Shown: one piece after another, positions 26,105 through 64,000 of the stretch
How the letters are laid out: each line of letters opens with the position of its first letter
Position numbering within the stretch: the stretch's first letter is position 1
Sequence record: MH719082.1
Length of the DNA stretch: 64,000 bases
Source: Escherichia phage vB_EcoM_IME392
Reading direction: 5' to 3' (one strand)
The notes under the pieces: model-generated
Database searches by the model: none
The model's input: only the letters and a program-made list of their open reading frames with translations
What the model was told of the DNA's origin: nothing
Position numbers and translations under genes: made by a program

Positions 26105-26180
26105 TGGTGGTCCATACTGGTTTCGAACCAGTGACCAAGCGATTATGAGTCGCCTGCTCTCACCACTGAGCTAATGGACC
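26105..26180 (-). tRNA. tRNA-Met (anticodon CAT; elongator type or Ile2-lysidine type)
   Basis: Reverse complement folds as a cloverleaf: acceptor GGTCCAT/ATGGACC, D arm GCTC-AGTGGTGA-GAGC, anticodon stem GGCGA/TCGCT with loop CTCATAA, T arm ACTGG-TTCGAAA-CCAGT, discriminator A, encoded CCA. Confidence 0.8.
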
Positions 26181-26649: not shown

Positions 26650-26725
26650 TGGTACTCCCTACTGGATTCGAACCAGTGACCGTCGGTTTAGAAGACCGAT
26701 GCTCTATCCTCTGAGCTAAGGGAGC
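26650..26725 (-). tRNA. tRNA-Arg (anticodon TCT)
   Basis: Reverse complement: acceptor GCTCCCT/AGGGAGT (G1-U72), D arm GCTC-AGAGGATA-GAGC, anticodon stem TCGGT/ACCGA with loop CTTCTAA, T arm ACTGG-TTCGAAT-CCAGT, CCA encoded. Confidence 0.8.
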
Positions 26726-49981: not shown

Positions 49982-51351
49982 ACATAATTCAAGATTCCTC
50001 TCTATCCTTCGACCAGATCAGAACGGATTTAGAGAACTATATTAAGTCTCTTCCAGATTATGAGACTAAGTGGAAGGACTTCTACGAGGCTGGTGCTGGC
50101 GAAACAGTACTTAATACTGGTGCTGGTATCACTGCATTCTTAGCTTACGCTGCCTACATGAACCGCCGAGATTCGTTACTGGATTTCGGCAATATGACCT
50201 CGACCATCGTGTCTATTGGGTCTGCATTAGGTTACGTGTATAATCGTAAATCTGCTCCTCTTCTCCAGATTACGTTTACATCCACTGAGCAAGTTTACTG
50301 GGATAAGGAAGATCCTATCGGTAACTACATGGGTCGTTCTCTGGTTCTCACCAACTCCACCCAAATAGAAGTTGGCGTGAACACCATTGTGGTTGCTATA
50401 GGTGATTGGGTCTCTCAGGAGATAACCATCACTGATGCTAAGGATTTTAAAGGTATCAACGTACCTATTCAGCCTGATAATAATCTGGTTAACCTGTATA
50501 TCGATGGAGAGAAGATCTCCTACACCACAGCTGCGGAAGATATGGATTCGGACAATGTCCTAATTCGTTCTTACTTCTCGGGAATATTCATTATCTTCGG
50601 GAACGGGTCACTGGGCAGGAAGGCTGCTGTTAACCAGGTACTTAAGATAGAGTACGTTGCTCCCGCTGATAAACTAGATGGGTTAACTCTGGATCCTACC
50701 AAGATTCAGTTATACGTTGAAAATACGAGTAACTCATCTGAAGTTAAATACCCTGGGTCAGACCCTGATAGTCCTGAGAAGATCGTTGCTATTGCTCCTG
50801 GTTATTATTCAGCCAAGAGACGTCTGGTTACTCTGGACGATTACGCTTCGATAGGTGCTTCTTATCAGGGTGTGGTAAGTGCTAACGCTGCTCTTCCGAC
50901 TACTTCTTGCTGCTCGGTTAACGTCTCGTACCTACGAGCCGATGAATTAACCATGAATGATGCTATGAAGGCAGATTTCGAGAAGTATATGCTGCAGTAC
51001 GCCATGCTGGGTTCTAACATAAATGTTATAGACCCTATCAGGATCATGGTCGATGTTAAGATGCGAGTGGTTATTGACTCCGGAGCTGATACGGATGCCA
51101 TTACCAAGAAGATTCGTGAAACCATAAATAAAAAGTGCATGACTAACGGTGCATTCTTTACGGTTAACGATATGACTCTGCCAGAGTCTCTTCGCGTTAG
51201 ACGTATCTACATTAAGCAGCCTATTCTTGACCGACAGGCTAAGTACAATGAGTACTATAAGCTCCGCAAACTGGAGATCAGTTATACGGAAGATCGGACT
51301 CTGGTAGATTCCGGAGGCACAGATAAGAATGCGGGGTATGAGTATGGCTAA
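49978..51351 (+). CDS. Baseplate J-like protein (gp6 / P2 gpJ family, putative)
   Basis: 457 aa, ATGA-coupled to the gp25-like gene. Position as in P2/T4 W-J. Confidence 0.4.
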   Translation: MNIIQDSSLSFDQIRTDLENYIKSLPDYETKWKDFYEAGAGETVLNTGAGITAFLAYAAYMNRRDSLLDFGNMTSTIVSIGSALGYVYNRKSAPLLQITFTSTEQVYWDKEDPIGNYMGRSLVLTNSTQIEVGVNTIVVAIGDWVSQEITITDAKDFKGINVPIQPDNNLVNLYIDGEKISYTTAAEDMDSDNVLIRSYFSGIFIIFGNGSLGRKAAVNQVLKIEYVAPADKLDGLTLDPTKIQLYVENTSNSSEVKYPGSDPDSPEKIVAIAPGYYSAKRRLVTLDDYASIGASYQGVVSANAALPTTSCCSVNVSYLRADELTMNDAMKADFEKYMLQYAMLGSNINVIDPIRIMVDVKMRVVIDSGADTDAITKKIRETINKKCMTNGAFFTVNDMTLPESLRVRRIYIKQPILDRQAKYNEYYKLRKLEISYTEDRTLVDSGGTDKNAGYEYG

Positions 51352-52822
51352 GTTCAACACTCTAGATTACTTCTCTCCTAACCTTAGAGGGAACGAGTTA
51401 TATAAGTTCTTCTCGCAGGTGCTGGATCATGGTCTAGAGACTGTTGTCTTTCCGGAGATGGATAAAAATACGGCGATTTATGATCCTAGTAAACCGTCTT
51501 ATGATCCGATTTATATCCTGGAGCTACTGGGTCAACCAGACTTAGCAGATCTCATAACTACCGAGGTAGACCAGAACTCAGTATCTGTACTCCTCCCAAG
51601 TATCCTTGATAACAAGGGTATGAAGGATGGGGTTGATCTTATCTTTAAGCTGATAAATGTAGAGATAGAAGAGATATTGTATCAGAAGACTCCGGAAGGC
51701 TGCTCACTGGCAACCATCCTGCTTCCTAAGAACGTGATCTTGTCTACTCGGCAGATTAAGCTAATTGATCGTCTGTCGCGTAAGGTATTTCCGATATGCG
51801 TAAGACTTACCGGTATCGCTAACTGTCTTCCAGATGGCGTTGAATCTCTCGGAAGCGCCTCCTTGGACACCAGTTGGTTGCTAGACACATCAATCCTGGA
51901 TGGTTCAGTAGGTATACGAGTCCCAGATATTTCGGATACTCTATGGCTGCGATTCTGTCTCGATATTATGTCGGAGATGGAAGTACCTCTTGAAGTGTTG
52001 ATTGATCGCTTCTCGGATCGTCTGATGAACTCTTATCTGACTGTATTCGATAGGAGAACTATCAAGCTAGATAATGGTCTTATTCTGGATATGGGTACAT
52101 ACTTAGATCTCCAGAATACCGACACTGCTCACAGCAGACTCTATAGCTCATTGGCTAAGTTTAATGTAGATTTAAGCGCCGATTCCAGAACTACTGAGAT
52201 TGAGTCCTTACTGGACTTATCAGACTTGGTAGCTGGGTTGGAGTTTAAGTCCTCTATGCTGCGTGAGATCTTCCTGTTCTTGGATATCGACCTCTCAGAG
52301 TTCGGATTCCAGAATTACATGGATAGGAAGATAGAGCACTTATCCAAGGGGATAGAGCAAGTAAATTATGGATATGAGGGTGGTAATTACGCTGATGGTT
52401 ACGATTTAACTAACTATCAGGGTTTCGAATACGAGAACTTATACGTAATCCAATCTCATCGTGATGGCCAAACTCAGCGTAGCGGGACGGCTTATTACGG
52501 ATTGCCGGAAATAGACTGGCTACACTTCGAAGGTATGGACTTCATTAATGGGTCTTACCTGCTGGATGGTACTCGTTATCTTCACCAGGAGTTCATTAAA
52601 AAGATCAAAGTGTACGATTGGTATACTCATTGGTCTAGCTACCGAGAAGCTATGTTCCTAACCACTCATAAGACCGAAAGACTCTTAGAGAAACGGGATG
52701 GGACTATTCTCCATGACGGAACTTATAATCGCGGTGAGAAAGTAACTCGTTACGGATTCGAACCTCTGTACAACGACGTTATTAGTCACGATGATACTTA
52801 CTATCGCGATGCCAATCTATAG
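51344..52822 (+). CDS. Baseplate wedge / P2 gpI-like protein (putative)
   Basis: Start ATG 51344 (MAKFNT) overlaps the stop of the J-like gene. 492 aa. Confidence 0.3.
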   Translation: MAKFNTLDYFSPNLRGNELYKFFSQVLDHGLETVVFPEMDKNTAIYDPSKPSYDPIYILELLGQPDLADLITTEVDQNSVSVLLPSILDNKGMKDGVDLIFKLINVEIEEILYQKTPEGCSLATILLPKNVILSTRQIKLIDRLSRKVFPICVRLTGIANCLPDGVESLGSASLDTSWLLDTSILDGSVGIRVPDISDTLWLRFCLDIMSEMEVPLEVLIDRFSDRLMNSYLTVFDRRTIKLDNGLILDMGTYLDLQNTDTAHSRLYSSLAKFNVDLSADSRTTEIESLLDLSDLVAGLEFKSSMLREIFLFLDIDLSEFGFQNYMDRKIEHLSKGIEQVNYGYEGGNYADGYDLTNYQGFEYENLYVIQSHRDGQTQRSGTAYYGLPEIDWLHFEGMDFINGSYLLDGTRYLHQEFIKKIKVYDWYTHWSSYREAMFLTTHKTERLLEKRDGTILHDGTYNRGEKVTRYGFEPLYNDVISHDDTYYRDANL

Positions 52823-52830
52823 GTGATTAG

Positions 52831-53598
52831 ATGAGCAATTATACTGGGGCATTTAACTTTCATGCTCAGGTGTACCAATTTGAAGAAAGTGATGTGGTTA
52901 AAGGTGGCCCGGACGGCATTGATAACGTGCCTCTTACCCAGCTGTCAGATCGTACGTTTTATCTTAAGGCTCTTGCTGACTTTACATTCCTTAAGCTATT
53001 CAATCTTAATCCTCTCGGCTCGTTCAAACAAGGATTCCAGATTAACGTGGCTGGGTATGCGGTCTTCGACGAGGCCTCCGGTAAGTGGTTTAAGTGGACA
53101 GGATCTCTACCTAAAGTAGTGGTTAAGTCTTCTAAGCCAGAAACTACTGGAGGTATCTATGATCCAACCACCAATCCGAGCGGTAAGTGGGTGGCTATTG
53201 ACTTCAGTGTTCTAGACCTTGGCGCTGGGGTTAAGATCCCTACAGCAGCTGCTCCTGGTAATCTGTATAGCGGTAAGTACAATCCAGCCTTCGTTAAGAT
53301 TGAGAATGTCTCCAATCTAGACATAGCAGAAGCCATATATACCAGACTAGGGAATGTGGTTACTGTTAATGGCAAGATCACTGCTTCTGCTACCGATGCC
53401 GGAGAAGTAATGAAAATAGGAATTGGCTTACCTATTAACGCTACCTTCTCAGATGACTCAAGCCTCTCAGGAGTTGGCGTTGGTATAGTAGCTGGTCAGA
53501 TTTATGCCGATGTGGACAGTAGTGTGGCTGTTCTTGAGATTAATCAGGGTAGTACAGACGAGCTGTCTCTGAGATACACGTTCTCTTACACTATATAA
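52831..53598 (+). CDS. Tail fibre/tailspike-associated protein with shared N-terminal anchor module
   Basis: N-terminal ...GGPDGIDNVPLTQLSDRTFYLKAL... and G.W.KW.GSLPK.V motifs are shared with 53611, 59505 and 62616. Confidence 0.45.
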   Translation: MSNYTGAFNFHAQVYQFEESDVVKGGPDGIDNVPLTQLSDRTFYLKALADFTFLKLFNLNPLGSFKQGFQINVAGYAVFDEASGKWFKWTGSLPKVVVKSSKPETTGGIYDPTTNPSGKWVAIDFSVLDLGAGVKIPTAAAPGNLYSGKYNPAFVKIENVSNLDIAEAIYTRLGNVVTVNGKITASATDAGEVMKIGIGLPINATFSDDSSLSGVGVGIVAGQIYADVDSSVAVLEINQGSTDELSLRYTFSYTI

Positions 53599-53610
53599 TA
53601 GGATATCGAA

Positions 53611-54528
53611 ATGGGTACTTATCAGGGTAAAAATCAGTACGTAGAGGACATCTATACCTTCGAACGTACTGACAAAGTGTCGGGTGGTGATGACGGTATT
53701 GATAACGTACCCATTAAGAATCTTACCGACAGAACTACATATCTCCGTAGTCTAGCATTGAATTCATTCCTGGATATCTATGGGATTAACCCAGTAGGTA
53801 CTTTCGGGATAGGATTTGATCTCCAGGACTCTGGGGATGGTGTGTATGACGAGGTGTCTGGCAAGTGGTATTACTGGCTAGGCTCCTTCCCCAAATCTGT
53901 TGCCGAGAATTCTTCTCCGGAAGATACTGGTGGTATCTTCGACCCAGAAAGTAATCCAGATGGATTATGGACTGAGGTAATTCCGGTAAACCAGCGTCAG
54001 GTAGATATGGCTGCTCGGGCATTCCGAGTTAAGACCGAAGAAGTCCAGTTCATGAAAGTAGGTCGTCCTCTCGACGGCTTTCGTGTATTGTATGACTTAG
54101 CTTCCCAGGAAGCTTATCGTTTACCTATGGATATCCCTGAAGGATCAACTATTGTTAGCTTAACAGACGGAGGGTGGCTAGAGCATAGCAATGGCAGGGT
54201 AAACTTATCTGCTTACGCCGTCGAATTAGAAGAGTATAAGTACTTTACCGGAGGCGACTTCAGTACCGGCTTTACTCTACGTCAGAACCACTGCATAGTT
54301 ATGCATGATGGTGTTCTGTATCGCTGGGATGGCGATTTTCCGAAGACCGTAAATGCTAACAGTACTCCAGAATCAGACGGTATTGGTGATGGTAAATGGG
54401 TTCCTGTTAAGACTGGTGCCCTGTATCGCTATGCTACTGTTGCCCAGTTAGATAGTGTTGAGAATGCTCTAACTACTCGCATAAACGAAGTAGAGAGCGC
54501 CGCTTTTGTTAACGCATTACTGTTCTAA
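53611..54528 (+). CDS. Tail fibre/tailspike-associated protein (paralogue of 52831)
   Basis: N-terminal 120 aa are paralogous to 52831. The G.Y.W.G.FPK.V...S.P...G module occurs twice. Confidence 0.45.
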   Translation: MGTYQGKNQYVEDIYTFERTDKVSGGDDGIDNVPIKNLTDRTTYLRSLALNSFLDIYGINPVGTFGIGFDLQDSGDGVYDEVSGKWYYWLGSFPKSVAENSSPEDTGGIFDPESNPDGLWTEVIPVNQRQVDMAARAFRVKTEEVQFMKVGRPLDGFRVLYDLASQEAYRLPMDIPEGSTIVSLTDGGWLEHSNGRVNLSAYAVELEEYKYFTGGDFSTGFTLRQNHCIVMHDGVLYRWDGDFPKTVNANSTPESDGIGDGKWVPVKTGALYRYATVAQLDSVENALTTRINEVESAAFVNALLF

Positions 54529-54537
54529 GGAATACCC

Positions 54538-54879
54538 ATGGCAGCTAAATTTAAACGAGCTAGCGCTACGCTAACTAAATCTGAATCTACCATTTATACT
54601 ACTCCGGCTACTGGTGCTATAATCGTTGGAATCCTGGCAGCCCATAATGGTGTTACAGATGCTGCAGCTCAGTTTCAGCTTAAGATTAAACCTGCATCTG
54701 GAAATGATGTATACCTGCTAGGTAAAGACACTAATCTTCCTCAGAAGTCGGCATTGAATATCGATTCTGCTAAGGTAATTCTCATGGATGGTGATCAGGT
54801 AGTAGCTTCAGCATCTGCTGTAGATACTTCTAATAACTCGAACATGGTAGACCTGACTCTTTCCATTGTGGAGAACTAA
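54538..54879 (+). CDS. Small hypothetical tail-fibre-cluster protein
   Basis: 113-aa ORF with RBS AAGGA. Confidence 0.4.
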   Translation: MAAKFKRASATLTKSESTIYTTPATGAIIVGILAAHNGVTDAAAQFQLKIKPASGNDVYLLGKDTNLPQKSALNIDSAKVILMDGDQVVASASAVDTSNNSNMVDLTLSIVEN

Positions 54880-54880
54880 T

Positions 54881-56227
54881 ATGGGTGGTTATATTGGTTT
54901 CAATCCATCTGATGGTGCTGGTGAACTTCGTAATGAATTGACTCCTAAGATCAAGAACAACCAGGATAACATCATCGAGTTGTGGGCGAATGACTTAGCC
55001 GATTGTGGTTACAATCTGGCAGCTACTTTCGAGTTCGGTGGTATCTTATCTAACCGATTCGATCTGGTAGTATCTCTTGATCGTCAGCGTGCATATTCAT
55101 GGAAGGGTAACTTTCCAGTAGATATTGCAAACGCACCTATCACCCATTCTAATTGGGTACCTTGGTCGATCGACCAAATGGGTGCTGGTAACTTATTGGA
55201 AGTTAAGTGGGTATCCTCTCGTAAGTTATTAGGGTCACCATTATGGGGTGGATTCGTAGCAGCTGATGGTGGTATCTTCTCACGTATCTTGTATCCTGAT
55301 ACTTGGGCAGCAGTCAATGCTGGACTAGTACAAGTATGTCCTGAAGCTGACTGGGTAGCTGATCCTACTAAGCGCCACTGCTATACTACTGGTGATGGTA
55401 CTACTACCTTCCGAGTACCTGACTTAAATGGTGCGTACCGTCATCCTAGTGACTCCTCTAAGAACTCCATTCCAGGATTATTCTTACGTGGTGATAATGG
55501 TAGTGACTACGGATACGTCCAGCGTAATGCTGCACCTAATATTACTGGTATTATACAAGGTCGTACTTCTGGTACTTATGGTCGACTATTCAGTCAATCT
55601 ACTATTAATAGTGGAGCATTACAAACTAGTGATGAGAATGGTGGTGAATTCGCTACTGGTACAGTAACTGCATCGACTCCATCTGATCGTATGAGTAAGT
55701 TACTATTTGATGCATCAAAATCACTTACACCAGGTGCTGAGGCTTACGGTCGTGCTGAACCTAATGGTGCACCTGCTGATGAAGTCCGACCTAACAGTGC
55801 AGTAGGTTGTTACGCTATCCGTCTACAAGGTCGAGTTGTGAATCCCGGTACGGTGGATCTGTTATCATTAGTTGATACAGTTGCAGGTATGACTATAGGT
55901 AATACACCTAGCAGTAATCAGATTCCTAACATGAAGCATTGGACTCGTGGAGGGTCAGGTCGTGCATGGTGGAGGAAAGAACCTGATGGATTCATTAGAC
56001 AGGGAGGATTCTTTACTGCTAATGTTAGACCTGGTTCAGGTACTAAAGTGTACGTTGATGTAACATGGGCTATACCATTCCCTAATGAATGTAACTCAGT
56101 AACCGTAGGTGATGCTGGATTCGGTGATGGTAATATGTGGGGCGCCACTAATATCACCAGGACTGGAGCTCGTTTATGGTGTAGCGCAGTAGGCGAGGGT
56201 GGTTACTACTTGGCTGAGGGCTACTAA
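54881..56227 (+). CDS. Tail fibre protein with phage tail-collar-like domain
   Basis: Start ATG 54881 after GGAGAA. The ORF-track start 54866 is TTG. ...KRHCYTTGDGTTTFRVPDLNGAYRHP...LFLRGDNGSDYGYVQRNAAPN is paralogous to 56667. Confidence 0.55.
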   Translation: MGGYIGFNPSDGAGELRNELTPKIKNNQDNIIELWANDLADCGYNLAATFEFGGILSNRFDLVVSLDRQRAYSWKGNFPVDIANAPITHSNWVPWSIDQMGAGNLLEVKWVSSRKLLGSPLWGGFVAADGGIFSRILYPDTWAAVNAGLVQVCPEADWVADPTKRHCYTTGDGTTTFRVPDLNGAYRHPSDSSKNSIPGLFLRGDNGSDYGYVQRNAAPNITGIIQGRTSGTYGRLFSQSTINSGALQTSDENGGEFATGTVTASTPSDRMSKLLFDASKSLTPGAEAYGRAEPNGAPADEVRPNSAVGCYAIRLQGRVVNPGTVDLLSLVDTVAGMTIGNTPSSNQIPNMKHWTRGGSGRAWWRKEPDGFIRQGGFFTANVRPGSGTKVYVDVTWAIPFPNECNSVTVGDAGFGDGNMWGATNITRTGARLWCSAVGEGGYYLAEGY

Positions 56228-56655
56228 TGGCTAATTATCTATATAGCAATTCTCGTAAATCGTTCTATCCAGTATCGTTAATAGAAAATTATCAAAATAG
56301 CATAAACGGATTACCTGAAGATTTAGTAGAAGTCAGTGATTCTGACTTTAATGAATTTTCTCAGAGTCGTACTAATGAGTGCTGTAATTTAACTGAATCA
56401 GGATTCGAGTGGATTCCTAAAGGTCCTGAACCAGTATCAGTCGAAGATGCTCATCGTATCAAGAGTATCTTGATAAATAGTGCTAATAAGACTATTAGTA
56501 CCTGGCAGACTAAGTTGATGCTTAATAGACTATCTGACGAAGATAAAGTCAAACTGAATGCTTGGTTGGACTACATCGATGAGCTGGAAGCTATCAATCC
56601 TGACTCAGTAGAAGATACATCAGCTATCCCGTGGCCTACTGCTCCTGAAGCATAA
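56227..56655 (+). CDS. Tail fibre assembly chaperone (Tfa-like)
   Basis: C-terminal LNRLSDEDKVKLNAWLDYIDELEAINPDSVEDTSAIPWPTAPEA matches the Caudovirales tail-fibre-assembly-protein C-terminal pattern (...W.DY...L.....P..WP..P). Confidence 0.55.
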   Translation: MANYLYSNSRKSFYPVSLIENYQNSINGLPEDLVEVSDSDFNEFSQSRTNECCNLTESGFEWIPKGPEPVSVEDAHRIKSILINSANKTISTWQTKLMLNRLSDEDKVKLNAWLDYIDELEAINPDSVEDTSAIPWPTAPEA

Positions 56656-56666
56656 AGAGGTATAAA

Positions 56667-58118
56667 ATGTCAAATGGATATATTGGTACCTACCCTAAAT
56701 TCGCTATTTATTCTCCTGAGAAATTGGCGAAAGGTACCACCACTAAGACTCTGCAGTATGCTCCAGGATCAGCTTATGCAATTCTGGTAGTAGTAGGCGG
56801 GGCGATTCAGGAACCTAACGTAGCCTATACTGTAGCAGGTAATGTCATTACTTTCACGGAGACGCTCCCGTACGATGGATGGGTTCAGTACCGTGGACTT
56901 GAAGGTAAGGATGCTACTGACTTTATCGCAGCTGCAGGTGATCCAGTACTATCAGCACGTTGGGCATTCTCACGTGATCATATCTGGGATGGATTCGTTC
57001 CACTAGATGGTCAGGAATTATCTCGTGCTATGTACCCGTCAGCATGGGAGGCTATCAATGCTGGATTAGTACCAGTCGAGGATGATGCTGCATGGTTGGC
57101 TGATCCCAAGAAACGTGCATCGTTTACTAAGGGTGATGGTACTTCAACATTCCGAGTACCTGACCTTAATGGTAAGTTGGGTGATTCTATAAAGGGACTG
57201 CACATCCGTGGAGATAATGGTGATTCAGCTCGTACCGGTAAAGTACTCCAGAATGGCGCTCCGAATATTACAGGATACACTAATTTATTAGGGTATAACA
57301 CATGGGCAAATAATGCCGGAGCGGCCAACGGTGCATTAAACTTAAGCCAGGGTTTAGCATTCTCCAACGGTACCGATTTAGTTGTAAACTCTTCTTACAG
57401 AGAATTAAGAGCTAATTTAGATGCATCTAAATCTAATGCATCTTATGGTCGTGACGGCACTGATGAAGTGCGTCCTAATGCAGCTATTGGATGCTGGGTA
57501 GTCAAGTTATTCGCAGGTATCGCTAATGCTGGTGTAGCTGATCTGCAGCAAGTGCTAGTCACGTTAGCTGGTAAGATGGATAAGACCAAGTACGAATTCG
57601 GTGTACCAATGATTGGCGTACCATTCTACTGGCCATCGGATAAGATGCCTGATGAAGTATATCCTGAGCTGAAAGGTATGCACTTCATCCAAGCTCGTGG
57701 TGATAACTTCGATGCTGAACTGTATCCTAAGTTAGCTACTGTTTATCCTAATAATAAGTTACCAGATTTACGTGGTGAATTCATCCGTGGTTGGGATGAC
57801 GGACGTGAAGTGGATACTGGACGAGCTCTGCTATCGCGTCAATCACATTCAATTATTGAACACTCACACTATATGGAGTTGTGGACAGGTGACGTACTTC
57901 ATTCTGGGGATGCTAGAGATGGGGTAAATGCAGGAGTACTGGCTACCTATGGTGATGGTGGGTCAATTAAATCTGACGAATCAGGTAATCATGTACCCTC
58001 CTTAGTACGAGCTATTAATACTCGTAATATTAATCGTTACAACGTAAATAGCGAAAATATAAGCACAGAAAACCGTCCACGTAACGTAGCATATAACATC
58101 ATTGTAAGGGCATTATAA
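56667..58118 (+). CDS. Tail fibre protein with phage tail-collar domain
   Basis: ...KKRASFTKGDGTSTFRVPDLNG... and C-terminal LPDLRGEFIRGWDDGREVDTGRAL, the canonical collar-domain motif. Confidence 0.65.
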   Translation: MSNGYIGTYPKFAIYSPEKLAKGTTTKTLQYAPGSAYAILVVVGGAIQEPNVAYTVAGNVITFTETLPYDGWVQYRGLEGKDATDFIAAAGDPVLSARWAFSRDHIWDGFVPLDGQELSRAMYPSAWEAINAGLVPVEDDAAWLADPKKRASFTKGDGTSTFRVPDLNGKLGDSIKGLHIRGDNGDSARTGKVLQNGAPNITGYTNLLGYNTWANNAGAANGALNLSQGLAFSNGTDLVVNSSYRELRANLDASKSNASYGRDGTDEVRPNAAIGCWVVKLFAGIANAGVADLQQVLVTLAGKMDKTKYEFGVPMIGVPFYWPSDKMPDEVYPELKGMHFIQARGDNFDAELYPKLATVYPNNKLPDLRGEFIRGWDDGREVDTGRALLSRQSHSIIEHSHYMELWTGDVLHSGDARDGVNAGVLATYGDGGSIKSDESGNHVPSLVRAINTRNINRYNVNSENISTENRPRNVAYNIIVRAL

Positions 58119-58726
58119 TGAGCATTGAATTTAACGATCAAGGTTTTGCCACCACTTCTGGTAAAGTGATGGTTTATAACTACAATGAAGATACTCGTGA
58201 ATTCACATTTAATCGTGAAGAGTTTATCTACGTAGGTGTATCGGTACCAGCTCACTCCACAATCGTTCCAGTGCCTGCAGAACGTGAAGGATATGCTCGA
58301 GTGTATCATGAAGATACCAAGAAGTGGGAATATGTAGAAGATCACCGTGGAGTAGAAGTTTACTCAAAAGCTGATCAAACTAAAGTAACTATCCAGGAAC
58401 TCGGACCTATCGACGATATCTACACTACGATTGCTCCTACTTCAATCCATGATAATTGGGATGAAGATACTGGTGCATGGGTACTAGATGAAGTTGCTGA
58501 GCACGAAGCTAAGGTGGTTGCGGCTGATGCCAAGAAAGTAACATTGATTGAGGATGCTAATGCTTATATCAATAGTAAGCAGTGGCCATCCAAACTGGCA
58601 ATGGGCCGACTGAGCGATGCTGATAAAGTCAAGTTCAATTTGTGGCTAGATTATCAGGAGGAAGTAGAAGCTATTGAAACTACTGATCCTGATACTATCG
58701 TATGGCCAGAAGCACCTGCTAAGTAA
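58118..58726 (+). CDS. Tail fibre assembly chaperone (Tfa-like), paralogue of 56227
   Basis: C-terminal MGRLSDADKVKFNLWLDYQEEVEAIETTDPDTIVWPEAPAK. Confidence 0.55.
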   Translation: MSIEFNDQGFATTSGKVMVYNYNEDTREFTFNREEFIYVGVSVPAHSTIVPVPAEREGYARVYHEDTKKWEYVEDHRGVEVYSKADQTKVTIQELGPIDDIYTTIAPTSIHDNWDEDTGAWVLDEVAEHEAKVVAADAKKVTLIEDANAYINSKQWPSKLAMGRLSDADKVKFNLWLDYQEEVEAIETTDPDTIVWPEAPAK

Positions 58727-58801
58727 TATTTATTAAGGGGTAGTTATGTCAATTAATTACATGACTCCAGATAGTATCGTGATTGTAAGTGAGGTGTCAA
58801 T

Positions 58802-59425
58802 ATGAGCCTCACCCGTCTTAAGTATTTAATGAACGAAGGTACAGATGCTGAAGTTGAAGCGTATCTACGCCAGCTGGGTATCGGTAATGGAGCTCCATTA
58901 ATAGGAGTACCGTTCCCGTGGGTTCATCCTACCAAGATGCCTGATGAGATATTTACTTCAATGAAGGGTATGCGATTTCTGAAGATGAATGGTCAGACAT
59001 TCGATCCAGAAACATACCCAGAACTGGCTAAGCTATGGACAACTAATCAGTTACAAGATCTACGTGCACAATTTATCCGTGGATGGGATGACGGTCGAGG
59101 CATGGATGCAGGACGAACGATCAATACTGGTCAGTCAGATTCTGCCCCAGAAATATCTGGTTGGTTCAGGACTGTTAATACTGAGAATGCATCAATCTGG
59201 GAAAGCATAACATCAGGATTTGGTTCTGGAGCTCTCTACGGTACTAATACTAAAGGTCAGTATTATAGATTAGCGGGACTTCCAATGGATATTAACGCTA
59301 CCTATAAGTATCCTACAGTAATTAACTTCTTGGCATCACGATCATCTTCAGTATATGGACGAAACGGCACCAATGAAATTGTACCTAAAAACGTAGCATT
59401 TCTGTACATCGTTCGAGCTAAATAA
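58802..59425 (+). CDS. Short tail fibre protein with tail-collar domain
   Basis: LQDLRAQFIRGWDDGRGMDAGRTIN collar motif. 207 aa. Confidence 0.6.
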   Translation: MSLTRLKYLMNEGTDAEVEAYLRQLGIGNGAPLIGVPFPWVHPTKMPDEIFTSMKGMRFLKMNGQTFDPETYPELAKLWTTNQLQDLRAQFIRGWDDGRGMDAGRTINTGQSDSAPEISGWFRTVNTENASIWESITSGFGSGALYGTNTKGQYYRLAGLPMDINATYKYPTVINFLASRSSSVYGRNGTNEIVPKNVAFLYIVRAK

Positions 59426-59504
59426 ATAAATAGCTACAATAGCAGGTGCAACTTGTACATGGGTTATGATAAACGAAGTGTTGACAATATCATAGGGTGA
59501 TTAA

Positions 59505-62492
59505 ATGTCTTATAATCCAATTGTAGAAGGGTCAACTTGGCCCGAGACTATTCGCCGCTTAGAAAAGACGGATAGGGCAGAAGGCGGTCAACTAGTTACT
59601 AATTCTAAGGATGAACCAGTATCCGGACATATTAATCATCCAATAACCCAATTAGCTACTAGAACCTCCATTTTAAAAAAGTCTAATTTATCGATAATTA
59701 ATAATACTAAAGAACAGTGGAAGTTATTACTCGGTGACTTAGGACTAACTCTTGTTGGCACTTTTGAAGAAGGTGCTACAGTAAACAGTAAAAAGGATGC
59801 TGTCTGGCATATTGATGGTGGCCAGTGCTACGTGTGGGGTGGCGTGCTCCCTAAGACTGTATATGCTAACTCCTCACCGCTAACTACTGGTGGTGTCTCT
59901 TCTGATGCTTGGGTTAGTATTGGTGATACCGCACTGCGAGGGCAAATATCAGACCCGGATGGTGCAACAAAATACCCCGAATTGCAGATTGCTCGATGGC
60001 GTGACATTTTCGACCCTCGTGGTTGGGGAGCTAAAGGTGATGGATTAGTCGATGATACTGTGGCTCTTAATAATCTGTTAAGCGCTGCTCCAGTAGGTCA
60101 GAAAATTAATGGTAACGGCAGAACCTATAAAGTATCCGCACTTCCAGATATTAGCAGATTCGTTAACACTCGTTTCGTTTATGAGCGTATTCCTGGCCAG
60201 CCGCTTTATTATGTATCTGACGAGTTTGTTCAGGGTGAGTTAATTAAAATAACCGATACCCCTTATTACAATGCTTGGCCTCAGGATAAAGCGTTCGTTT
60301 ACGACGATGTTATTTACTGTCCGTTCATGGCTAGCGATCGGCACGGGGTTAGCAGGCTTCATGTATCCTGGGTTCGCTCAGGTGATGACGGACAGACCTG
60401 GACGACCCCGGAGTGGCTAACTGACCTACACCCTAATTACCCAACAGTTAACTACCACTGTATGAGTATGGGGGTGATGCGTAATCGTCTCTTTGCGATG
60501 ATTGAGACCCGTACTTTAGCAGCTAACGCATTAGTGACCTGTGAGTTGTGGGATCGCCCCATGTCCCGTAACTACCATCTGACAGGTGGTATAACAAAAG
60601 CTGCCAACCAGCCTGTGGCTGTAATTACCATCCCTGAACACGGTCTTTTTGCTGGGGATTTTGTTAACTTCTCGAACTCTGGGGTGACTGGCGTTTCTGG
60701 GAATATGACTGTAACTTCAGTTATTGACCGCAACACGTTTACAGTTACCACGCCAAATCAACAAGCATTCGACCAAAATAACTCTACCAGCCGCTGGCAT
60801 ATGGGGACATCGTTCCATCAGTCACCATGGCGTAAAACCAGCCTTGGATTGATCCCTATGGTTACCGAGGTTCACAGTTTTACCGCCATCAATAACGATT
60901 CATTCATGATGGGGTACCATCAGGGTGATGTTGCTCCGCGTGAAGTAGGTATGTTGTATTTCCCTGATGCATTTAACAATCCTGGGCATTATATAAAACG
61001 ACGTATCCCTGCTGAATATGAGCCGGATGCGGCAGAACCCTGTGTTAAATATTTTGACGGTGTTCTTTATGTTGTAACCCGTGGAACTCGGTCGGACCGT
61101 CTGGGTAGTTCGCTTCATCGTAGTAATGATTTGGGTATAACCTGGCAATCATTGAGGTTCCCGAATAATGTCCACCACTCCACCCTGCCATTCGCTAAGG
61201 TAGGAAACGAACTGATTCTTTTCGGCACTGAACGCGCCGACAACGAGTGGGAAGCAAACGCACCCGACCAGCGATATTTTAGTTCTTACCCACGAACGTT
61301 TTACACGCGAGTGAACCTCGACACCTGGAACCTGGATAATACTCAGTGGGTGAATATCACTGACCAGATTTATCAGGGTGGTATTGTTAACTCTGGCGTC
61401 GGTGTCGGATCGGTCGTCGTGAAAGATAGTTATATCTATTACATGTTCGGTGGGGAAGACCATCTGAACCCATGGACATATGGAGATAACTTAGAGAAAG
61501 ACCCATTCAAATCAGACGGTCATCCCTCAGATTTGTATTGTTACAAAATGCAGATCGGTCCAGACAATCGTGTTTCTCGTGATTTCAGGTACGGTGCTGT
61601 ACCTGACAGAGCGGTTCCAGTGTTTTTTGATACGAATGGAGTTCGCACTGTTCCTGCTCCAATGGAATTTACAGGGGATTTGGGTTTAGGTCATGTGACC
61701 ATTAGAGCCAGCACCAGTAGTAACATTCGCTCTGAAGTTTTAATGGAAGGTGAGTATGGGTTTATCGGGAAATCTGTACCGACTAATAACCCTGCAGGTC
61801 AGCGCATCATATTTTGCGGAGGCGACGGTACCAGTTCTTCTACTGGTGCACAGATTACGCTTTACGGTGCGAGTAACACAGCTTCTCGCAGGATAGTTTA
61901 CAACGGAGATGAGCATCTGTTTCGGAGTGCTGATGTTAAGCCTTATAACGATAACGTCATTGCGCTTGGTGGGCCTAGCAACCGTTTCACCACTGCATAC
62001 CTCGGAAGCAACCCTATTGTTACTTCTAACGGAGAGAAGAAAACAGAGCCGGTAGTTTTTGATGATGCTTTTTTAGATGCTTGGGGCGATGTTCATTACA
62101 TCATGTATCAGTGGTTGGATTCTGTACACCTGAAAGGAAATGACGCTAGAATCCATTTTGGCGTAATTGCTCAGCAGATCCGCGATGTATTCATTGCTCA
62201 CGGTCTGATGGATGAGAACAGCACGGATTGCCGCTATGCTGTTCTGTGTTACGACAAATATCCTCGCATGACAGACATGGTGTTCTCTCACTATGAAATA
62301 GTTGAACACACTGACGAGGAGGGTAATGTCACTACCACGGAAGAACCTGTATACACCGAGGTGGTTATTCACGAAGAGGGTGAGGAGTGGGGTGTGAGGC
62401 CTGATGGAATTTTCTTTGCTGAGGCAGCATTCCAGAGAAGAAGACTGGAAAGAATCGAAGCCAGACTTTCCGATCTTGAAAAGAAGCAGTAA
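59505..62492 (+). CDS. Tailspike/depolymerase-like protein: N-terminal anchor module, pectate-lyase-like beta-helix, C-terminal S74 intramolecular chaperone domain
   Basis: WGAKGDGLVDDTVALNNLLSAAP (pectate-lyase_3-like). The C-terminal ...SNGEKKTEPVVFDDAFLDAWGDVHYIMYQWLD...IHFGVIAQQI...RLERIEARLSDLEKKQ is typical of the peptidase-S74 autocleaving chaperone domain. Confidence 0.65.
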   Translation: MSYNPIVEGSTWPETIRRLEKTDRAEGGQLVTNSKDEPVSGHINHPITQLATRTSILKKSNLSIINNTKEQWKLLLGDLGLTLVGTFEEGATVNSKKDAVWHIDGGQCYVWGGVLPKTVYANSSPLTTGGVSSDAWVSIGDTALRGQISDPDGATKYPELQIARWRDIFDPRGWGAKGDGLVDDTVALNNLLSAAPVGQKINGNGRTYKVSALPDISRFVNTRFVYERIPGQPLYYVSDEFVQGELIKITDTPYYNAWPQDKAFVYDDVIYCPFMASDRHGVSRLHVSWVRSGDDGQTWTTPEWLTDLHPNYPTVNYHCMSMGVMRNRLFAMIETRTLAANALVTCELWDRPMSRNYHLTGGITKAANQPVAVITIPEHGLFAGDFVNFSNSGVTGVSGNMTVTSVIDRNTFTVTTPNQQAFDQNNSTSRWHMGTSFHQSPWRKTSLGLIPMVTEVHSFTAINNDSFMMGYHQGDVAPREVGMLYFPDAFNNPGHYIKRRIPAEYEPDAAEPCVKYFDGVLYVVTRGTRSDRLGSSLHRSNDLGITWQSLRFPNNVHHSTLPFAKVGNELILFGTERADNEWEANAPDQRYFSSYPRTFYTRVNLDTWNLDNTQWVNITDQIYQGGIVNSGVGVGSVVVKDSYIYYMFGGEDHLNPWTYGDNLEKDPFKSDGHPSDLYCYKMQIGPDNRVSRDFRYGAVPDRAVPVFFDTNGVRTVPAPMEFTGDLGLGHVTIRASTSSNIRSEVLMEGEYGFIGKSVPTNNPAGQRIIFCGGDGTSSSTGAQITLYGASNTASRRIVYNGDEHLFRSADVKPYNDNVIALGGPSNRFTTAYLGSNPIVTSNGEKKTEPVVFDDAFLDAWGDVHYIMYQWLDSVHLKGNDARIHFGVIAQQIRDVFIAHGLMDENSTDCRYAVLCYDKYPRMTDMVFSHYEIVEHTDEEGNVTTTEEPVYTEVVIHEEGEEWGVRPDGIFFAEAAFQRRRLERIEARLSDLEKKQ

Positions 62493-62615
62493 ATAAAGAC
62501 TTTTACCGTAGGTAGGAGAAGGTAGAGGCTTCAATTTAAGATTTAACTTAAACTAATCACCACTCTAAAGTTACTAAGTGTTTGTACATCATGTAATATT
62601 TTATGGAGATCACCA

Positions 62616-64000
62616 ATGGGCGGTCGTTCTAAGTTATTTAGCGAACTGGGCGGAGCTCCTCTTAATACTTATCAGCATGATAACCAGACTCTCGATATTC
62701 GCGAGTTAGAAAATCAGCAGAAAGTATTAGACGAGACTCTTGCCGAAACAATAGGCAACGTTAACGAGTTGCAACAGACTGCTGGTCAGTCTATGTATAT
62801 CCTCGGTAACTATGCCTCCGGAATGGTGATCGAGAACGACCGCCAGTACGTCAGATATGATAATCTGCTGTACTATTGGACTGGTCCTGTACCGTTCACT
62901 ACCACCGGCAACTTCTACGAAGAATCCTACTGGACTGGTGGGGTACAGAGCGGTATCGAGTGGAGTTACGAGGTACAGGAAGATGGGGAATTCGAGTTTA
63001 ATATTCCTTACTCCTTTACCAACGTACGTCTATTCGTAGGTGGTGTCCGCCTTACTCGCGTAGAAGATTACACTATCGATGTGATTAATCGCAAGATCAC
63101 TCTGACTAAGGTTAAGCTGTCGAAGGGTGTCCTGGTGACTGCCGAGCTGAACTCTCGTGATGCTCTTAGCGTTACCCAGGATCGCATCGATAGCCTTACC
63201 AGAGAGATCTCAGAGAAAGTAGGTTTCGTTAATTACAAACTTACTGATCTGTCTGAAGGTCAGAGCCTGACTCTCACTACCAGAGTCCAGACTGTAAGCT
63301 TCTCAGTAAATGGGGAGTATTATAAATGGGATGGCGTTCTTCCTAAAGTTGTTAATTATGGAGATCCGGAGCCATCTCAATCTGAACAGGGGACTGGTAA
63401 GTGGATTCCTGTAGGTTCTGGTGCTCTTAAGTCAGAGCTCATGACTGCTGGCGAAACTACTGGTGCTGCTATTGTCTATCTGAGATATGGTGGCACGGTG
63501 GCTGATGGTATTCGATACATCACCCCAGAAATGGCTCGAGCTAAAGGCGACGGTACTACGGACGATACAGCAGCTCTTCGCTCTGCTGTTACCCTGGCTA
63601 AGACTTATGGTCTTAAGCTTATGGGTATGGGTACTTACAAGATCTCTAACCAATCGGTGGATATTTCCGGGGTAGTGATCGAGAACCTAACCATAGTTGG
63701 TACCGGTGCTAGTTCACAGCTGCTGGTTAATGGCGATACGGACATAACTAAGCTGAACCTTAGCAAATGCGGTATTCGTCACATCAACGGTATCTTTAAA
63801 CTCGACCAGTTCGAAATTAATGACTGTTCTGCGACTGCTGCTCTGCTGTGTCAGCAATTAGCAGCTAATAGCCAACTGTTCGTCACTAATGGTATTATGC
63901 GTCGCTGTAACTATGGTTACCTCCGTCAGGGTAGTCCTGCATCTTCCAAGCCGCTCACTGCGACTCTGCTACAGAACTTACAGTTCTTCGACATGAAGAG
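62616..64000 (+). CDS. Second tailspike-like protein (partial; continues beyond window end)
   Basis: ATG 62616 after GGAGA. The frame is open to 64000 by own translation. MARAKGDGTTDDTAALRSAVTLAKTYGLKLMG is a pectate-lyase-like motif, and the YKWDGVLPKVV anchor-module variant is present. Confidence 0.5.
   Translation, partial: MGGRSKLFSELGGAPLNTYQHDNQTLDIRELENQQKVLDETLAETIGNVNELQQTAGQSMYILGNYASGMVIENDRQYVRYDNLLYYWTGPVPFTTTGNFYEESYWTGGVQSGIEWSYEVQEDGEFEFNIPYSFTNVRLFVGGVRLTRVEDYTIDVINRKITLTKVKLSKGVLVTAELNSRDALSVTQDRIDSLTREISEKVGFVNYKLTDLSEGQSLTLTTRVQTVSFSVNGEYYKWDGVLPKVVNYGDPEPSQSEQGTGKWIPVGSGALKSELMTAGETTGAAIVYLRYGGTVADGIRYITPEMARAKGDGTTDDTAALRSAVTLAKTYGLKLMGMGTYKISNQSVDISGVVIENLTIVGTGASSQLLVNGDTDITKLNLSKCGIRHINGIFKLDQFEINDCSATAALLCQQLAANSQLFVTNGIMRRCNYGYLRQGSPASSKPLTATLLQNLQFFDMK

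What the first reader, a model, noticed from the sequence alone, without database searches (positions are those of the whole stretch)
52831..64000. Recurrent about 35-aa module G-x-(Y/W)-x-W-x-G-x-(L/F)-P-K-x-V...S-P-x-x-(T/D)-G...W in five consecutive tail fibre/tailspike proteins
The motif is seen in 52831 (SGKWFKWTGSLPKVVVKSSKPETTGGIYDP), twice in 53611, in 59505 (GQCYVWGGVLPKTVYANSSPLTTGGVSSDAW) and in 62616 (GEYYKWDGVLPKVVNYGDPEPSQSEQGTGKW). In 52831, 53611 and 59505 it is preceded by a shared ...TD...GG....P...L.DRT.YL N-terminal block.

A shared small N-terminal domain on otherwise unrelated receptor-binding proteins is the hallmark of a common docking site, a branched multi-tailspike adaptor complex like that described for multi-tailspike enterobacterial phages.
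Basis: seen in the sequence. Interest (0 to 1): 0.55.

Follow-up and report, generated by a model that had tools for sequence, protein, structure and literature searches.

The report
Known tailspike head domain, repeated
The repeated 35-60 residue motif is real, but it is the catalogued "D2 head" domain of phage tailspikes (Pfam PF18668), which also occurs in single-tailspike phages, so here it marks the joint between anchor and swappable receptor-binding body rather than a special docking site.

Summary
Five strong copies of the motif lie in four receptor-binding proteins (RBPs) starting at 52831, 53611 (two copies), 59505 and 62616. A sub-threshold copy lies in 54881. The proteins are not consecutive.

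All five copies score above the Pfam cut-off for PF18668 (Tail_spike_N). This is the D2 "head" subdomain solved in CBA120 TSP1/3/4 and G7C gp63.1.

The shared N-terminal block is also real. It matches the N-termini of tail fibres of Mu/P2-like myophages such as BcepMu gp52.

The window is Escherichia phage vB_EcoM_IME392 or a near-identical phage.

The docking-site reading is only partly supported:
- In CBA120, docking is reported for D1 and the gp10-like XD domains, not for D2.
- In relatives, similarity breaks at or inside D2, so D2 looks like the conserved joint where bodies are exchanged.

A branched multi-RBP apparatus remains plausible, for other reasons. Single gp10-like XD domains lie in 56667 and 62616. 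Protein 53611 is a body-less, selectively maintained anchor-D2-D1-D2-neck protein.

Verdict: new member of a known kind, modest interest.

The parts
51329..52822 (+). 497-aa baseplate protein at the gpI/gp7 position, the likely socket for the type-A anchors
   Evidence: Gene order is V spike, gp25/W, J-like, this gene, then RBPs, the same as BcepMu V-W-J-I-fibre. It has no Pfam or PHROG family. Against EP_H11 its N-terminal 200 aa are about 100% identical but its C-terminal half only 25-55%, so it diverges together with the RBP set.
52831..53598 (+). 255-aa short RBP: anchor A (aa 1-58), D2 module (aa 59-124, nt 53005-53202), C-terminal beta 'knob' (aa about 125-255)
53611..54528 (+). 305-aa body-less 'head-only' protein: anchor A (aa 1-58), D2 (59-124, nt 53785-53982), D1 (126-205, nt 53986-54225), D2 (206-268, nt 54226-54414), neck-like tail that I read as helical (269-305)
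   Evidence: Residues 126-272 match the D1-D2 head of CBA120 TSP3 (5w6f) at E 1.6e-28. The two PF18668 copies score 47.2 and 61.7 bits. Only one 50%-identity cluster among 1.84 billion representatives has this full architecture. dN/dS is 0.09.
54538..54879 (+). 113-aa protein of unknown role; first gene of the variable cassette
   Evidence: It is only 33% identical to its L002 counterpart, while the flanking 53611 is 96% identical. There is no PDB or Pfam match. It is not XD-like. The AlphaFold2 model failed with pLDDT 34.
54881..56227 (+). 448-aa tail fibre with a sub-threshold D2-like stretch (aa 48-82, nt 55022-55126) and a Gp53-like C-terminus, followed by its assembly protein (56227-56655)
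   Evidence: Pfam Gp53-like_C and Caudo_TAP. The D2-like stretch scores 18.1 bits, E 0.003.
56667..58118 (+). 483-aa tail fibre with an N-terminal gp10-like XD domain (aa about 8-82, nt 56688-56912) and a collar tip, followed by its assembly protein (58118-58726)
   Evidence: A Kuttervirus XD HMM hits it at E 6.9e-6. PDB entry 9k4a, with tandem domains, matches at E 1.1e-5. Pfam Collar.
58802..59425 (+). 207-aa collar-tip-only paralogue of the 56667 C-terminus, with no anchor
   Evidence: PHROG matches cover only the C-terminal parts of tail-fibre profiles. A 40-nt repeat at 57642/58934 is 78% identical.
59505..62492 (+). 995-aa endosialidase tailspike: anchor B (aa 1-80), D2 (81-140, nt 59745-59924), K1F-type endosialidase (aa 176-840), S74 intramolecular chaperone (aa 844-901)
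   Evidence: Pfam domain set. It is 80% identical and gap-free with K1F-like phiYIO1-1 gp43 from aa 77 onwards; D2 is about 40% identical and the rest at least 75%. DNA similarity to K1F starts at about nt 59906, the end of D2.
62616..64000 (+). Colanidase-like tailspike, cut by the window end (873 aa in L002): anchor C, weak D2-like stretch (aa 63-100), XD domain (aa 107-184, nt 62934-63167), D2 (aa 209-267, nt 63240-63416), then the start of the body
   Evidence: PF18668 scores 25.9 bits. PHROG 6117 'colanic acid degradation'; the L002 homologue carries Pfam WcaM.

Best explanation
The module is the D2 'head' subdomain of trimeric phage tailspikes (Pfam PF18668). In CBA120 TSP1 it is a helix followed by a small antiparallel beta-sandwich.

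In this IME392-type myovirus each RBP is a three-part chimera:
1. A lineage-specific N-terminal anchor fixes it to the virion. Types A and B are the Mu/P2-like fibre anchor. Type C is different. Two fibres instead start with a GYIG peptide, and one of them with an XD domain.
2. D2 follows as a conserved trimeric spacer or joint just before the neck.
3. An exchangeable receptor-binding body comes last: a knob, a K1 endosialidase or a colanidase-like beta-helix.

Because D2 is conserved across many phage genera, it is the place where bodies are swapped by recombination. That is why otherwise unrelated RBPs share it.

Shown here: domain identities, domain order, similarity breakpoints and purifying selection.

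Inferred:
- Anchors A and B plug into the baseplate protein 51329.
- The XD domains of 62616 and 56667, and perhaps the body-less 53611, provide secondary branch points.
- The virion therefore carries a multivalent, partly branched RBP set.
For: - Five copies score above the Pfam cut-off.
- A profile of the module hits the solved D2 domains of CBA120 TSP1/3/4, G7C gp63.1 and others at E 1e-20 to 5e-11, and nothing else.
- D2 is distinct from XD2/XD3.
- D2 lies between unrelated anchors and unrelated bodies in many genera, including single-RBP phages.
- Breakpoints: 59505 against L002_15305 is about 100% identical for aa 1-100 and falls to about 20% within D2. Against L003_15389 it falls after aa 60. 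Against K1F-like gp43 the high identity starts right after D2.
- Pas et al. [quoted passage not shown] It is conserved in Kaguna-, Kayfuna-, Justusliebig- and Nouzillyviruses, in Gamaleyavirus RBP2 and in all Kuttervirus RBPs except TSP2. They propose it as a recombination hotspot. That distribution matches the occurrence of D2.
- The anchor block matches the N-termini of BcepMu gp52-type fibres, which sit directly after the gpI gene. It occurs there without D2.
- The C-terminal half of 51329 diverges together with the RBP set.
- XD domains are supported by reciprocal profile hits on the crystallographic XD positions.
- Both short proteins are under purifying selection, with dN/dS 0.075 and 0.09.
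Against: - No structure or interaction data exist for this phage.
- AlphaFold2 did not fold the anchor or D2 region with confidence (pLDDT below 50), so the D2 fold rests on sequence homology only.
- In 52831, 53611 (first copy) and 59505, D2 directly follows the anchor without D1, so a contribution of D2 to docking cannot be excluded.
- The breakpoint argument rests on four related loci.
- DNA identity between the copies in this genome is only what the protein conservation imposes (66%), so recombination between copies within one genome is not indicated.
- The XD assignments have modest statistics (hhalign probability 84%).
Confidence: 0.7

Rival explanations
1. D2, together with the N-terminal block, is a common docking domain that plugs several RBPs into one adaptor, giving a CBA120/G7C-like branched complex in which the module itself makes the contacts.
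For: D2 is found in the secondary branches of known branched complexes: TSP1 and TSP3 of CBA120, gp63.1 of G7C and a Kuravirus-type gp13. TSP1 and TSP3 bind through their D1-D2 heads (PMC8825819). The locus encodes XD domains that could be the platforms.
Against: In CBA120 the binding surface is assigned to D1 and to XD2/XD3, and TSP2 lacks D2 yet is part of the complex. D2 is present in single-tailspike phages. Here it follows three different anchors. Only 53611 has a D1, and that D1 is internal.
Confidence: 0.15
2. D2 is an accessory carbohydrate-binding domain. Its fold resembles CBM5/12 chitin-binding domains. It would give each RBP a weak, generic affinity for surface glycans.
Against: The same paper notes that glycan binding by head domains has never been reported. 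D2 sits at the virion-proximal end, far from the cell. No CBM family is hit even at E up to 10.
Confidence: 0.1
3. The two short proteins, 52831 and 53611, are decaying remnants of tailspikes that lost their bodies, and the repeated module is a leftover of duplications with no present function.
For: 53611 ends right after the neck. 52831 and 53611 are tandem paralogues, 47-50% identical over aa 1-124. EP_H11 has a 780-aa full tailspike at the same position.
Against: Both ORFs are intact and conserved at 91-96% amino-acid identity in independent metagenome contigs, with dN/dS 0.075 and 0.09 across all subdomains. 52831 has a folded knob-like C-terminal domain.
Confidence: 0.05

Closest known systems
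CBA120 / Kuttervirus TSP1-4 branched tailspike complex (PDB 4oj5, 5w6f, 5w6h, 7rej)
   Same: The D2 domain is homologous (E about 1e-15 to 1e-17). 53611 carries a complete D1-D2 head (E 1.6e-28 to TSP3). gp10-like XD domains are present. Several RBPs with different enzymatic bodies are encoded in tandem.
   Different: There is no TSP4-like trunk with AD-XD1-XD2-XD3. XD domains occur singly, in a fibre and in a tailspike. Most RBPs have anchor + D2 without D1. The anchors are of the Mu/P2-like fibre type. Tail fibres with assembly proteins are mixed in with the tailspikes.
G7C gp66 / gp63.1 two-branched tailspike (PDB 4qnl)
   Same: gp63.1 has the same D1-D2 head, and D2 is matched at E 5e-11 by the module profile.
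   Different: G7C is an N4-like podovirus with one trunk and one branch. No gp66-like trunk was found here.
K1F gp17 and K1F-like endosialidase tailspikes (for example phiYIO1-1 gp43)
   Same: 59505 aa 77-994 is collinear and 80% identical. It has the same D2, End_N_terminal, beta-propeller, stalk and S74 chaperone order.
   Different: The T7 gp17-type N-terminal tail-binding domain is replaced by anchor B. K1F-like phages have a single tailspike.
Tail fibres of Mu/P2-like myophages (BcepMu gp52, phiE255 gp25, Klebsiella prophage SGNH tailspike)
   Same: They share the N-terminal block of about 50 aa (44-55% identity). The gene sits immediately after the gpI-position baseplate gene.
   Different: Those phages encode one or two RBPs, and their anchor is not followed by D2. 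Here three RBPs carry the anchor.
phi92 / rV5-like 'Swiss-army-knife' myophages
   Same: They are multivalent, combining an endosialidase, a colanidase-like tailspike and several fibres. D2 copies are present in these genomes.
   Different: The baseplate lineage is unrelated. The nearest baseplate relatives here are EP_H11, Acinetobacter phage Ab1-TPeters and Rhizobium and Vibrio phages. No DNA similarity exists outside the endosialidase.

Membership tests
Pfam PF18668 Tail_spike_N (D2 head subdomain) | HMM score at or above the curated gathering score (25 bits) | tested here: met
   The five copies score 41.6, 47.2, 61.7, 60.8 and 25.9 bits. The copy in 54881 scores 18.1 bits and is not a member by this test.
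Pfam PF18668 Tail_spike_N (D2 head subdomain) | Homology to the crystallographic D2 (TSP1 residues 97-154 and equivalents) | tested here: met
   The profile of the copies hits 4oj5 at 99-155, 5w6f at 98-154, 5w6h at 85-141 and 4qnl at 103-152, with E 1e-17 to 5e-11. D2 boundaries are from PMC3966878.
Pfam PF18668 Tail_spike_N (D2 head subdomain) | Fold: helix plus small antiparallel beta-sandwich | tested here: inconclusive
   The AlphaFold2 model of 52831 has pLDDT below 50 over aa 1-115 because the alignment is shallow.
CBA120-type branched tailspike complex | Trunk protein with baseplate anchor plus tandem gp10-like XD1-XD2-XD3 domains | tested here: not met
   Only single XD domains were found, in 56667 (aa 8-82) and 62616 (aa 107-184). 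No TSP4-like N-terminus is present.
CBA120-type branched tailspike complex | Branch tailspikes start with a D1-D2 head that docks on XD domains | tested here: not met
   D1 is found only inside 53611, preceded by anchor + D2. 52831, 59505 and 62616 lack D1.
CBA120-type branched tailspike complex | Physical assembly of the RBPs into one complex | not testable with these tools
   This needs multimer modelling, pull-downs or cryo-EM.
T4 gp10-like XD domain | Profile similarity to the structurally defined XD2/XD3 of TSP4 and TSP2 | tested here: met
   A Kuttervirus XD HMM hits 56667 (6.9e-6) and 62616 (2e-4). hhalign gives probability 83.6%, E 8e-6. The reciprocal profile lands on TSP2 24-82 and 103-159 and on TSP4 274-329. 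PDB matches are 9k4a at 1.8e-12 and 9d83 Gp49 at 2.8e-7. The statistics are modest.
T4 gp10-like XD domain | Beta-jellyroll fold and partner binding | not tested
   No structure prediction was made for these segments.
Mu/P2-like fibre N-terminal anchor (BcepMu gp52 type; no Pfam model) | Conserved N-terminal block at the very N-terminus of a fibre encoded next to the gpI-position baseplate gene | tested here: met
   The block alignment is. tblastn hits the N-termini of BcepMu gp52, phiE255 gp25 and others. Synteny is shown.
Mu/P2-like fibre N-terminal anchor (BcepMu gp52 type; no Pfam model) | Direct binding to the baseplate wedge | not testable with these tools
   It is inferred from synteny and from the co-divergence of the 51329 C-terminal half.
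K1F-type endosialidase tailspike | End_N_terminal + beta-propeller + beta-barrel + stalk + S74 chaperone | tested here: met
   Pfam hits range from 2.3e-205 to 1e-8. The protein is 80% identical to phiYIO1-1 gp43.
SP6 / K1-5 gp37-type tailspike adaptor | T7 gp17-like N-terminal tail-binding domain in a short adaptor protein | tested here: not met
   No Phage_T7_tail hit occurs in any protein of the cluster.

The most novel reading that the evidence does not exclude
Protein 53611 (anchor-D2-D1-D2-neck, no receptor-binding body) is a dedicated branching hub. It would be a tailspike 'head' kept under selection purely as an adaptor on a Mu/P2-type baseplate. The fast-swapping cassette that starts at 54538, and the GYIG-N-terminus fibres, would dock onto it. 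This would be a way of building a branched RBP complex that differs from the gp10-like TSP4/gp66 trunks and from the T7-like gp37 adaptor.
Probability: 0.25. Interest if true: 0.55.

Novelty: new member of a known kind. Interest (0 to 1): 0.3.

Why it matters
The result mainly clarifies. A motif that looks like a special docking signature is a catalogued, very widespread tailspike head domain, found in 1644 phage records. Its recurrence should not be read as evidence for a branched adaptor.

For phage engineering, the locus is a clean example of anchor, D2 joint and exchangeable body. A K1 endosialidase cassette that is T7-like elsewhere has been grafted onto a Mu-type myovirus anchor at the D2 boundary. 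This points to D2 as a practical splice point for host-range swaps.

The body-less head protein 53611 and the hypervariable 54538 are small open questions about how this little-studied IME392/EP_H11 lineage mounts eight or more RBP genes on a simple baseplate.

Tried and rejected
- A PDB profile search with the N-terminal anchor block found no hit at E up to 10, so its structure is unknown.
- I suspected that 54538 is an XD-like domain. hhalign gave probability 0.2% against both XD profiles, so I rejected this. phmmer against PDB gave nothing. AlphaFold2 failed with pLDDT 34, so no fold search was run.
- I considered read-through or fusion of 53611 with 54538, which are in the same frame 9 nt apart. 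This is rejected: the stop is TAA, followed by an AGGA Shine-Dalgarno sequence and an ATG.
- I looked for long DNA repeats between module copies that could drive intragenomic recombination. Only 20-nt matches were found, and the cores are 66% identical.
- CBM5/12 or any other Pfam family on the isolated modules: none at E up to 10.
- An IMG/VR scan for relatives of 53611 found none.
- The search for homologous proteins returned only close relatives, so the AlphaFold2 alignments were shallow.
- Alignment A9, meant for an XD/D2 prediction, was misaligned by MAFFT and was not used.
- A literature search for PDB entry 9D80 found nothing. The phage of origin of 9d80-9d84 (Gp48/Gp49) remains unknown to me.
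- The IME392 genome paper (Hu et al. 2021, Arch Virol 166:2505, cited in PMC12210895) is not in the library.
Full report
**What is in the region.** Window 47.8-64 kb encodes a simple contractile-tail baseplate:
- a 374-aa protein of unassigned family;
- a V-type spike (PF04717);
- a gp25/W protein;
- a J-like wedge protein;
- a 497-aa protein with no known family at the gpI/gp7 position.

A tandem array of receptor-binding protein (RBP) genes follows on the same strand:

| Start | Length | Nature |
|---|---|---|
| 52831 | 255 aa | short RBP |
| 53611 | 305 aa | head-only protein |
| 54538 | 113 aa | unknown |
| 54881 | 448 aa | fibre, Gp53-like C-terminus |
| 56227 | 142 aa | tail fibre assembly protein |
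| 56667 | 483 aa | fibre, collar tip |
| 58118 | 202 aa | tail fibre assembly protein |
| 58802 | 207 aa | collar tip only |
| 59505 | 995 aa | K1F-type endosialidase with S74 chaperone |
| 62616 | over 461 aa | colanidase-like tailspike, cut by the window end |

The 255-aa protein is 100% identical to a protein of Escherichia phage vB_EcoM_IME392 (116,460 bp) (the same protein is BFVD entry A0A385ISJ4). The window is therefore that phage or a near-identical one. The closest record in the phage collection is EP_H11. Its wedge protein is 97.6% identical, but its RBP set is different.

**Check of the observation.** The strict pattern G..[YWF].W.G.[LF]PK.V occurs exactly five times in the six-frame translation of the whole window. 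All five stretches pass Pfam's curated threshold for PF18668. The N-terminal block shared by 52831, 53611 and 59505 is real, with ten invariant positions across eight sequences.

- There are four proteins, not five, and they are not consecutive.
- The domain is about 60 aa long.
- A fifth, sub-threshold copy lies in 54881 (aa 48-82). A further weak one in 62616 (aa 63-100) is seen only by my own HMM.

**What the module is.** A profile of the copies hits only the D2 subdomains of solved tailspikes, at E 1e-20 to 5e-11. These are CBA120 TSP1 (4oj5, 99-155), TSP3 (5w6f), TSP4 (5w6h), G7C gp63.1 (4qnl), 9d84 Gp48, 9occ gp13, 8x8m and others.

D2 in TSP1 is residues 97-154. It is a helix plus an antiparallel beta-sandwich that resembles a chitin-binding domain, and its function is unknown (PMC3966878).

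The module is not the gp10-like XD2/XD3 docking domain. Neither my HMM nor Pfam matches the XD regions of Kuttervirus TSP4 or TSP2. In CBA120, binding was assigned to the D1-D2 heads of TSP1 and TSP3, with the TSP1 contact drawn at D1, and to XD2 and XD3 (PMC8825819).

**Distribution of D2.** tblastn with one copy finds 1644 phage records. Two single-tailspike examples were checked directly:
- K1F-like phiYIO1-1 gp43 has a T7 tail N-domain (10-114), D2 (156-211), then the endosialidase.
- The Jerseyvirus NBSal007 tailspike has D2 followed by a P22-type body.

**The N-terminal block.** It matches the first 50 residues or so of tail fibres of Mu/P2-like myophages such as BcepMu gp52 and phiE255 gp25, and of proteins of Klebsiella, Pasteurella and Pseudomonas temperate phages.

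In BcepMu the fibre directly follows the gpI gene, the same synteny as here. In BcepMu gp52 and in a Klebsiella prophage SGNH tailspike the block occurs without D2. In other metagenomic proteins it occurs with D2. Anchor and D2 are therefore independent modules.

No solved structure matches the block.

Three anchor classes exist in the lineage:
- type A: 52831, 53611 and the EP_H11 780-aa protein;
- type B, with a 10-aa insertion: 59505, the EP_H11 560-aa protein, L002_15305 and L003_15389;
- type C: 62616, the EP_H11 824-aa protein, L002_18212 and L003_17963.

**Evidence that D2 is the joint for body exchange**:
- 59505 against L002_15305 is about 100% identical over aa 1-100 and drops within D2 to about 20%; the body there is a different enzyme.
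- Against L003_15389 the drop comes after aa 60.
- Against the K1F-like gp43 the alignment is gap-free from aa 77. D2 is about 40% identical and everything after aa 137 is 75-90% identical.
- DNA similarity to K1F starts at about nt 59906, the 3' edge of D2.

Pas et al. [quoted passage not shown] It is present in Kaguna-, Kayfuna-, Justusliebig- and Nouzillyviruses, in Gamaleyavirus RBP2 and in all Kuttervirus RBPs except TSP2, and they propose it as a recombination hotspot. TSP2 is also the one Kuttervirus tailspike without D2, so I infer that their motif lies in D2.

**Other features that bear on a branched complex.**
1. gp10-like XD domains. An HMM built only from the four crystallographically defined Kuttervirus XD2/XD3 domains picks out 56667 (aa 41-74, E 6.9e-6), 62616 (aa 131-181, 2e-4) and L002_12801 from 31 RBP-cluster proteins. 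hhalign between the two profiles gives probability 83.6%, E 8e-6. The reciprocal profile lands on TSP2 24-82 and 103-159 and on TSP4 274-329. It also hits 9k4a (two tandem domains, 1.8e-12), 9d83 Gp49 (2.8e-7) and 9d80_D 234-292, directly upstream of that protein's D1-D2 head.
2. Protein 53611 is anchor A + D2 + a complete D1-D2 head (E 1.6e-28 to TSP3) + a 35-aa neck-like tail, and then it stops. Among 1.84 billion representative proteins only its own cluster has this architecture. It is under purifying selection in every subdomain (dN/dS 0.09).
4. Related metagenome contigs keep the trio of 255 aa, 316 aa and about 110 aa after the baseplate and then carry different fibres and tailspikes. 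The variable cassette starts exactly at 54538, which is 33% identical while its neighbour is 96% identical.
5. The C-terminal half of the baseplate protein 51329 diverges between this phage and EP_H11 together with the RBP anchors, while its first 200 residues are about 100% identical. This suggests, but does not show, that it carries the sockets.

**Mechanism proposed.**
- Shown: D2 identity, domain order, anchor classes, breakpoints and selection.
- Inferred: anchors A and B bind the 51329/J-like wedge periphery, as in Mu-like phages.
- Inferred: D2 is a trimeric spacer and the conserved splice point before the neck.
- Inferred: the XD domains, and possibly 53611, give secondary branch points, so the virion displays a knob protein, two fibres, a K1 endosialidase and a colanidase-like spike.

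I put about 0.7 on this overall picture. Domain identity is near certain. The view that D2 is a joint and not the docking element is about 0.7. A truly branched topology is about 0.5.

**Comparison with known systems.** The locus works like the multivalent RBP sets of CBA120, G7C, RaK2 and phi92 and uses the same building blocks (D1, D2, XD). It fails two defining features of the CBA120 architecture. There is no AD-XD1-XD2-XD3 trunk, and no branch starts with D1-D2.

It is therefore a new member of the known kind 'modular, multivalent tailspike and fibre cluster', with a minor new variant in the head-only protein 53611. Interest is modest (0.3). A specialist would recognise the domain at once, and Pfam annotation of these very proteins already exists.

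Noticed in passing
window 54538-54879: The 113-aa protein is only 33% identical between this phage and contig L002, although the neighbouring 53611 is 96% identical. It marks the start of the swapped fibre cassette. It has no family, PDB match or usable model.
   Followed up: partly
window 58802-59425 (and 57642-57681 / 58934-58973): The 207-aa ORF is a paralogue of only the collar-tip C-terminus of fibre 56667, with no anchor or shaft and no assembly protein of its own. It may be an orphan or alternative tip cassette. A 40-nt stretch is 78% identical between the two.
   Followed up: partly
window 51329-52822 versus L001 17367-18866: The baseplate protein at the gpI position is about 100% identical to EP_H11 over aa 20-200 but only 25-55% in its C-terminal half. 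The exchange boundary of the whole RBP module therefore lies inside this gene.
   Followed up: partly
window 54881, 56667; L002 11299: Three fibres start with a shared M-x(0-2)-G-Y-I-G N-terminal peptide (MGGYIGFNP, MSNGYIGTYP, MGYIGPNY). It may be a short docking peptide. Its significance was not tested.
   Followed up: no
window 54881-56227 versus 56667-58118: The two fibres are paralogous in their central shafts (50-70% identity over aa about 120-220 of 54881) but have different N-termini and tips. Each is followed by its own lambda gpK-type assembly protein.
   Followed up: no
window 26105-26180 and 26650-26725 (- strand): Two tRNA genes, Met-CAT and Arg-TCT, lie in the gap between the leftward gene block (1-25 kb) and the rightward structural block (from 29.8 kb). 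The GC skew changes sign near 30 kb.
   Followed up: no
PDB 9d80-9d84 (matches to 53611 and to the XD profile): Unpublished or unlocated entries contain a 410-aa 'Gp49' with two XD domains together with a 777-aa 'Gp48' that has a D1-D2 head. This looks like a solved short-adaptor/tailspike pair and would be the best structural comparator. I could not identify the phage.
   Followed up: partly
window 43944-46802: A 952-aa ORF upstream of the baseplate corresponds to the L002 gene with a Glyco_hydro_19 hit. EP_H11 annotates its homologue as a lytic transglycosylase. It is probably the tape-measure or tail lysin protein.
   Followed up: no
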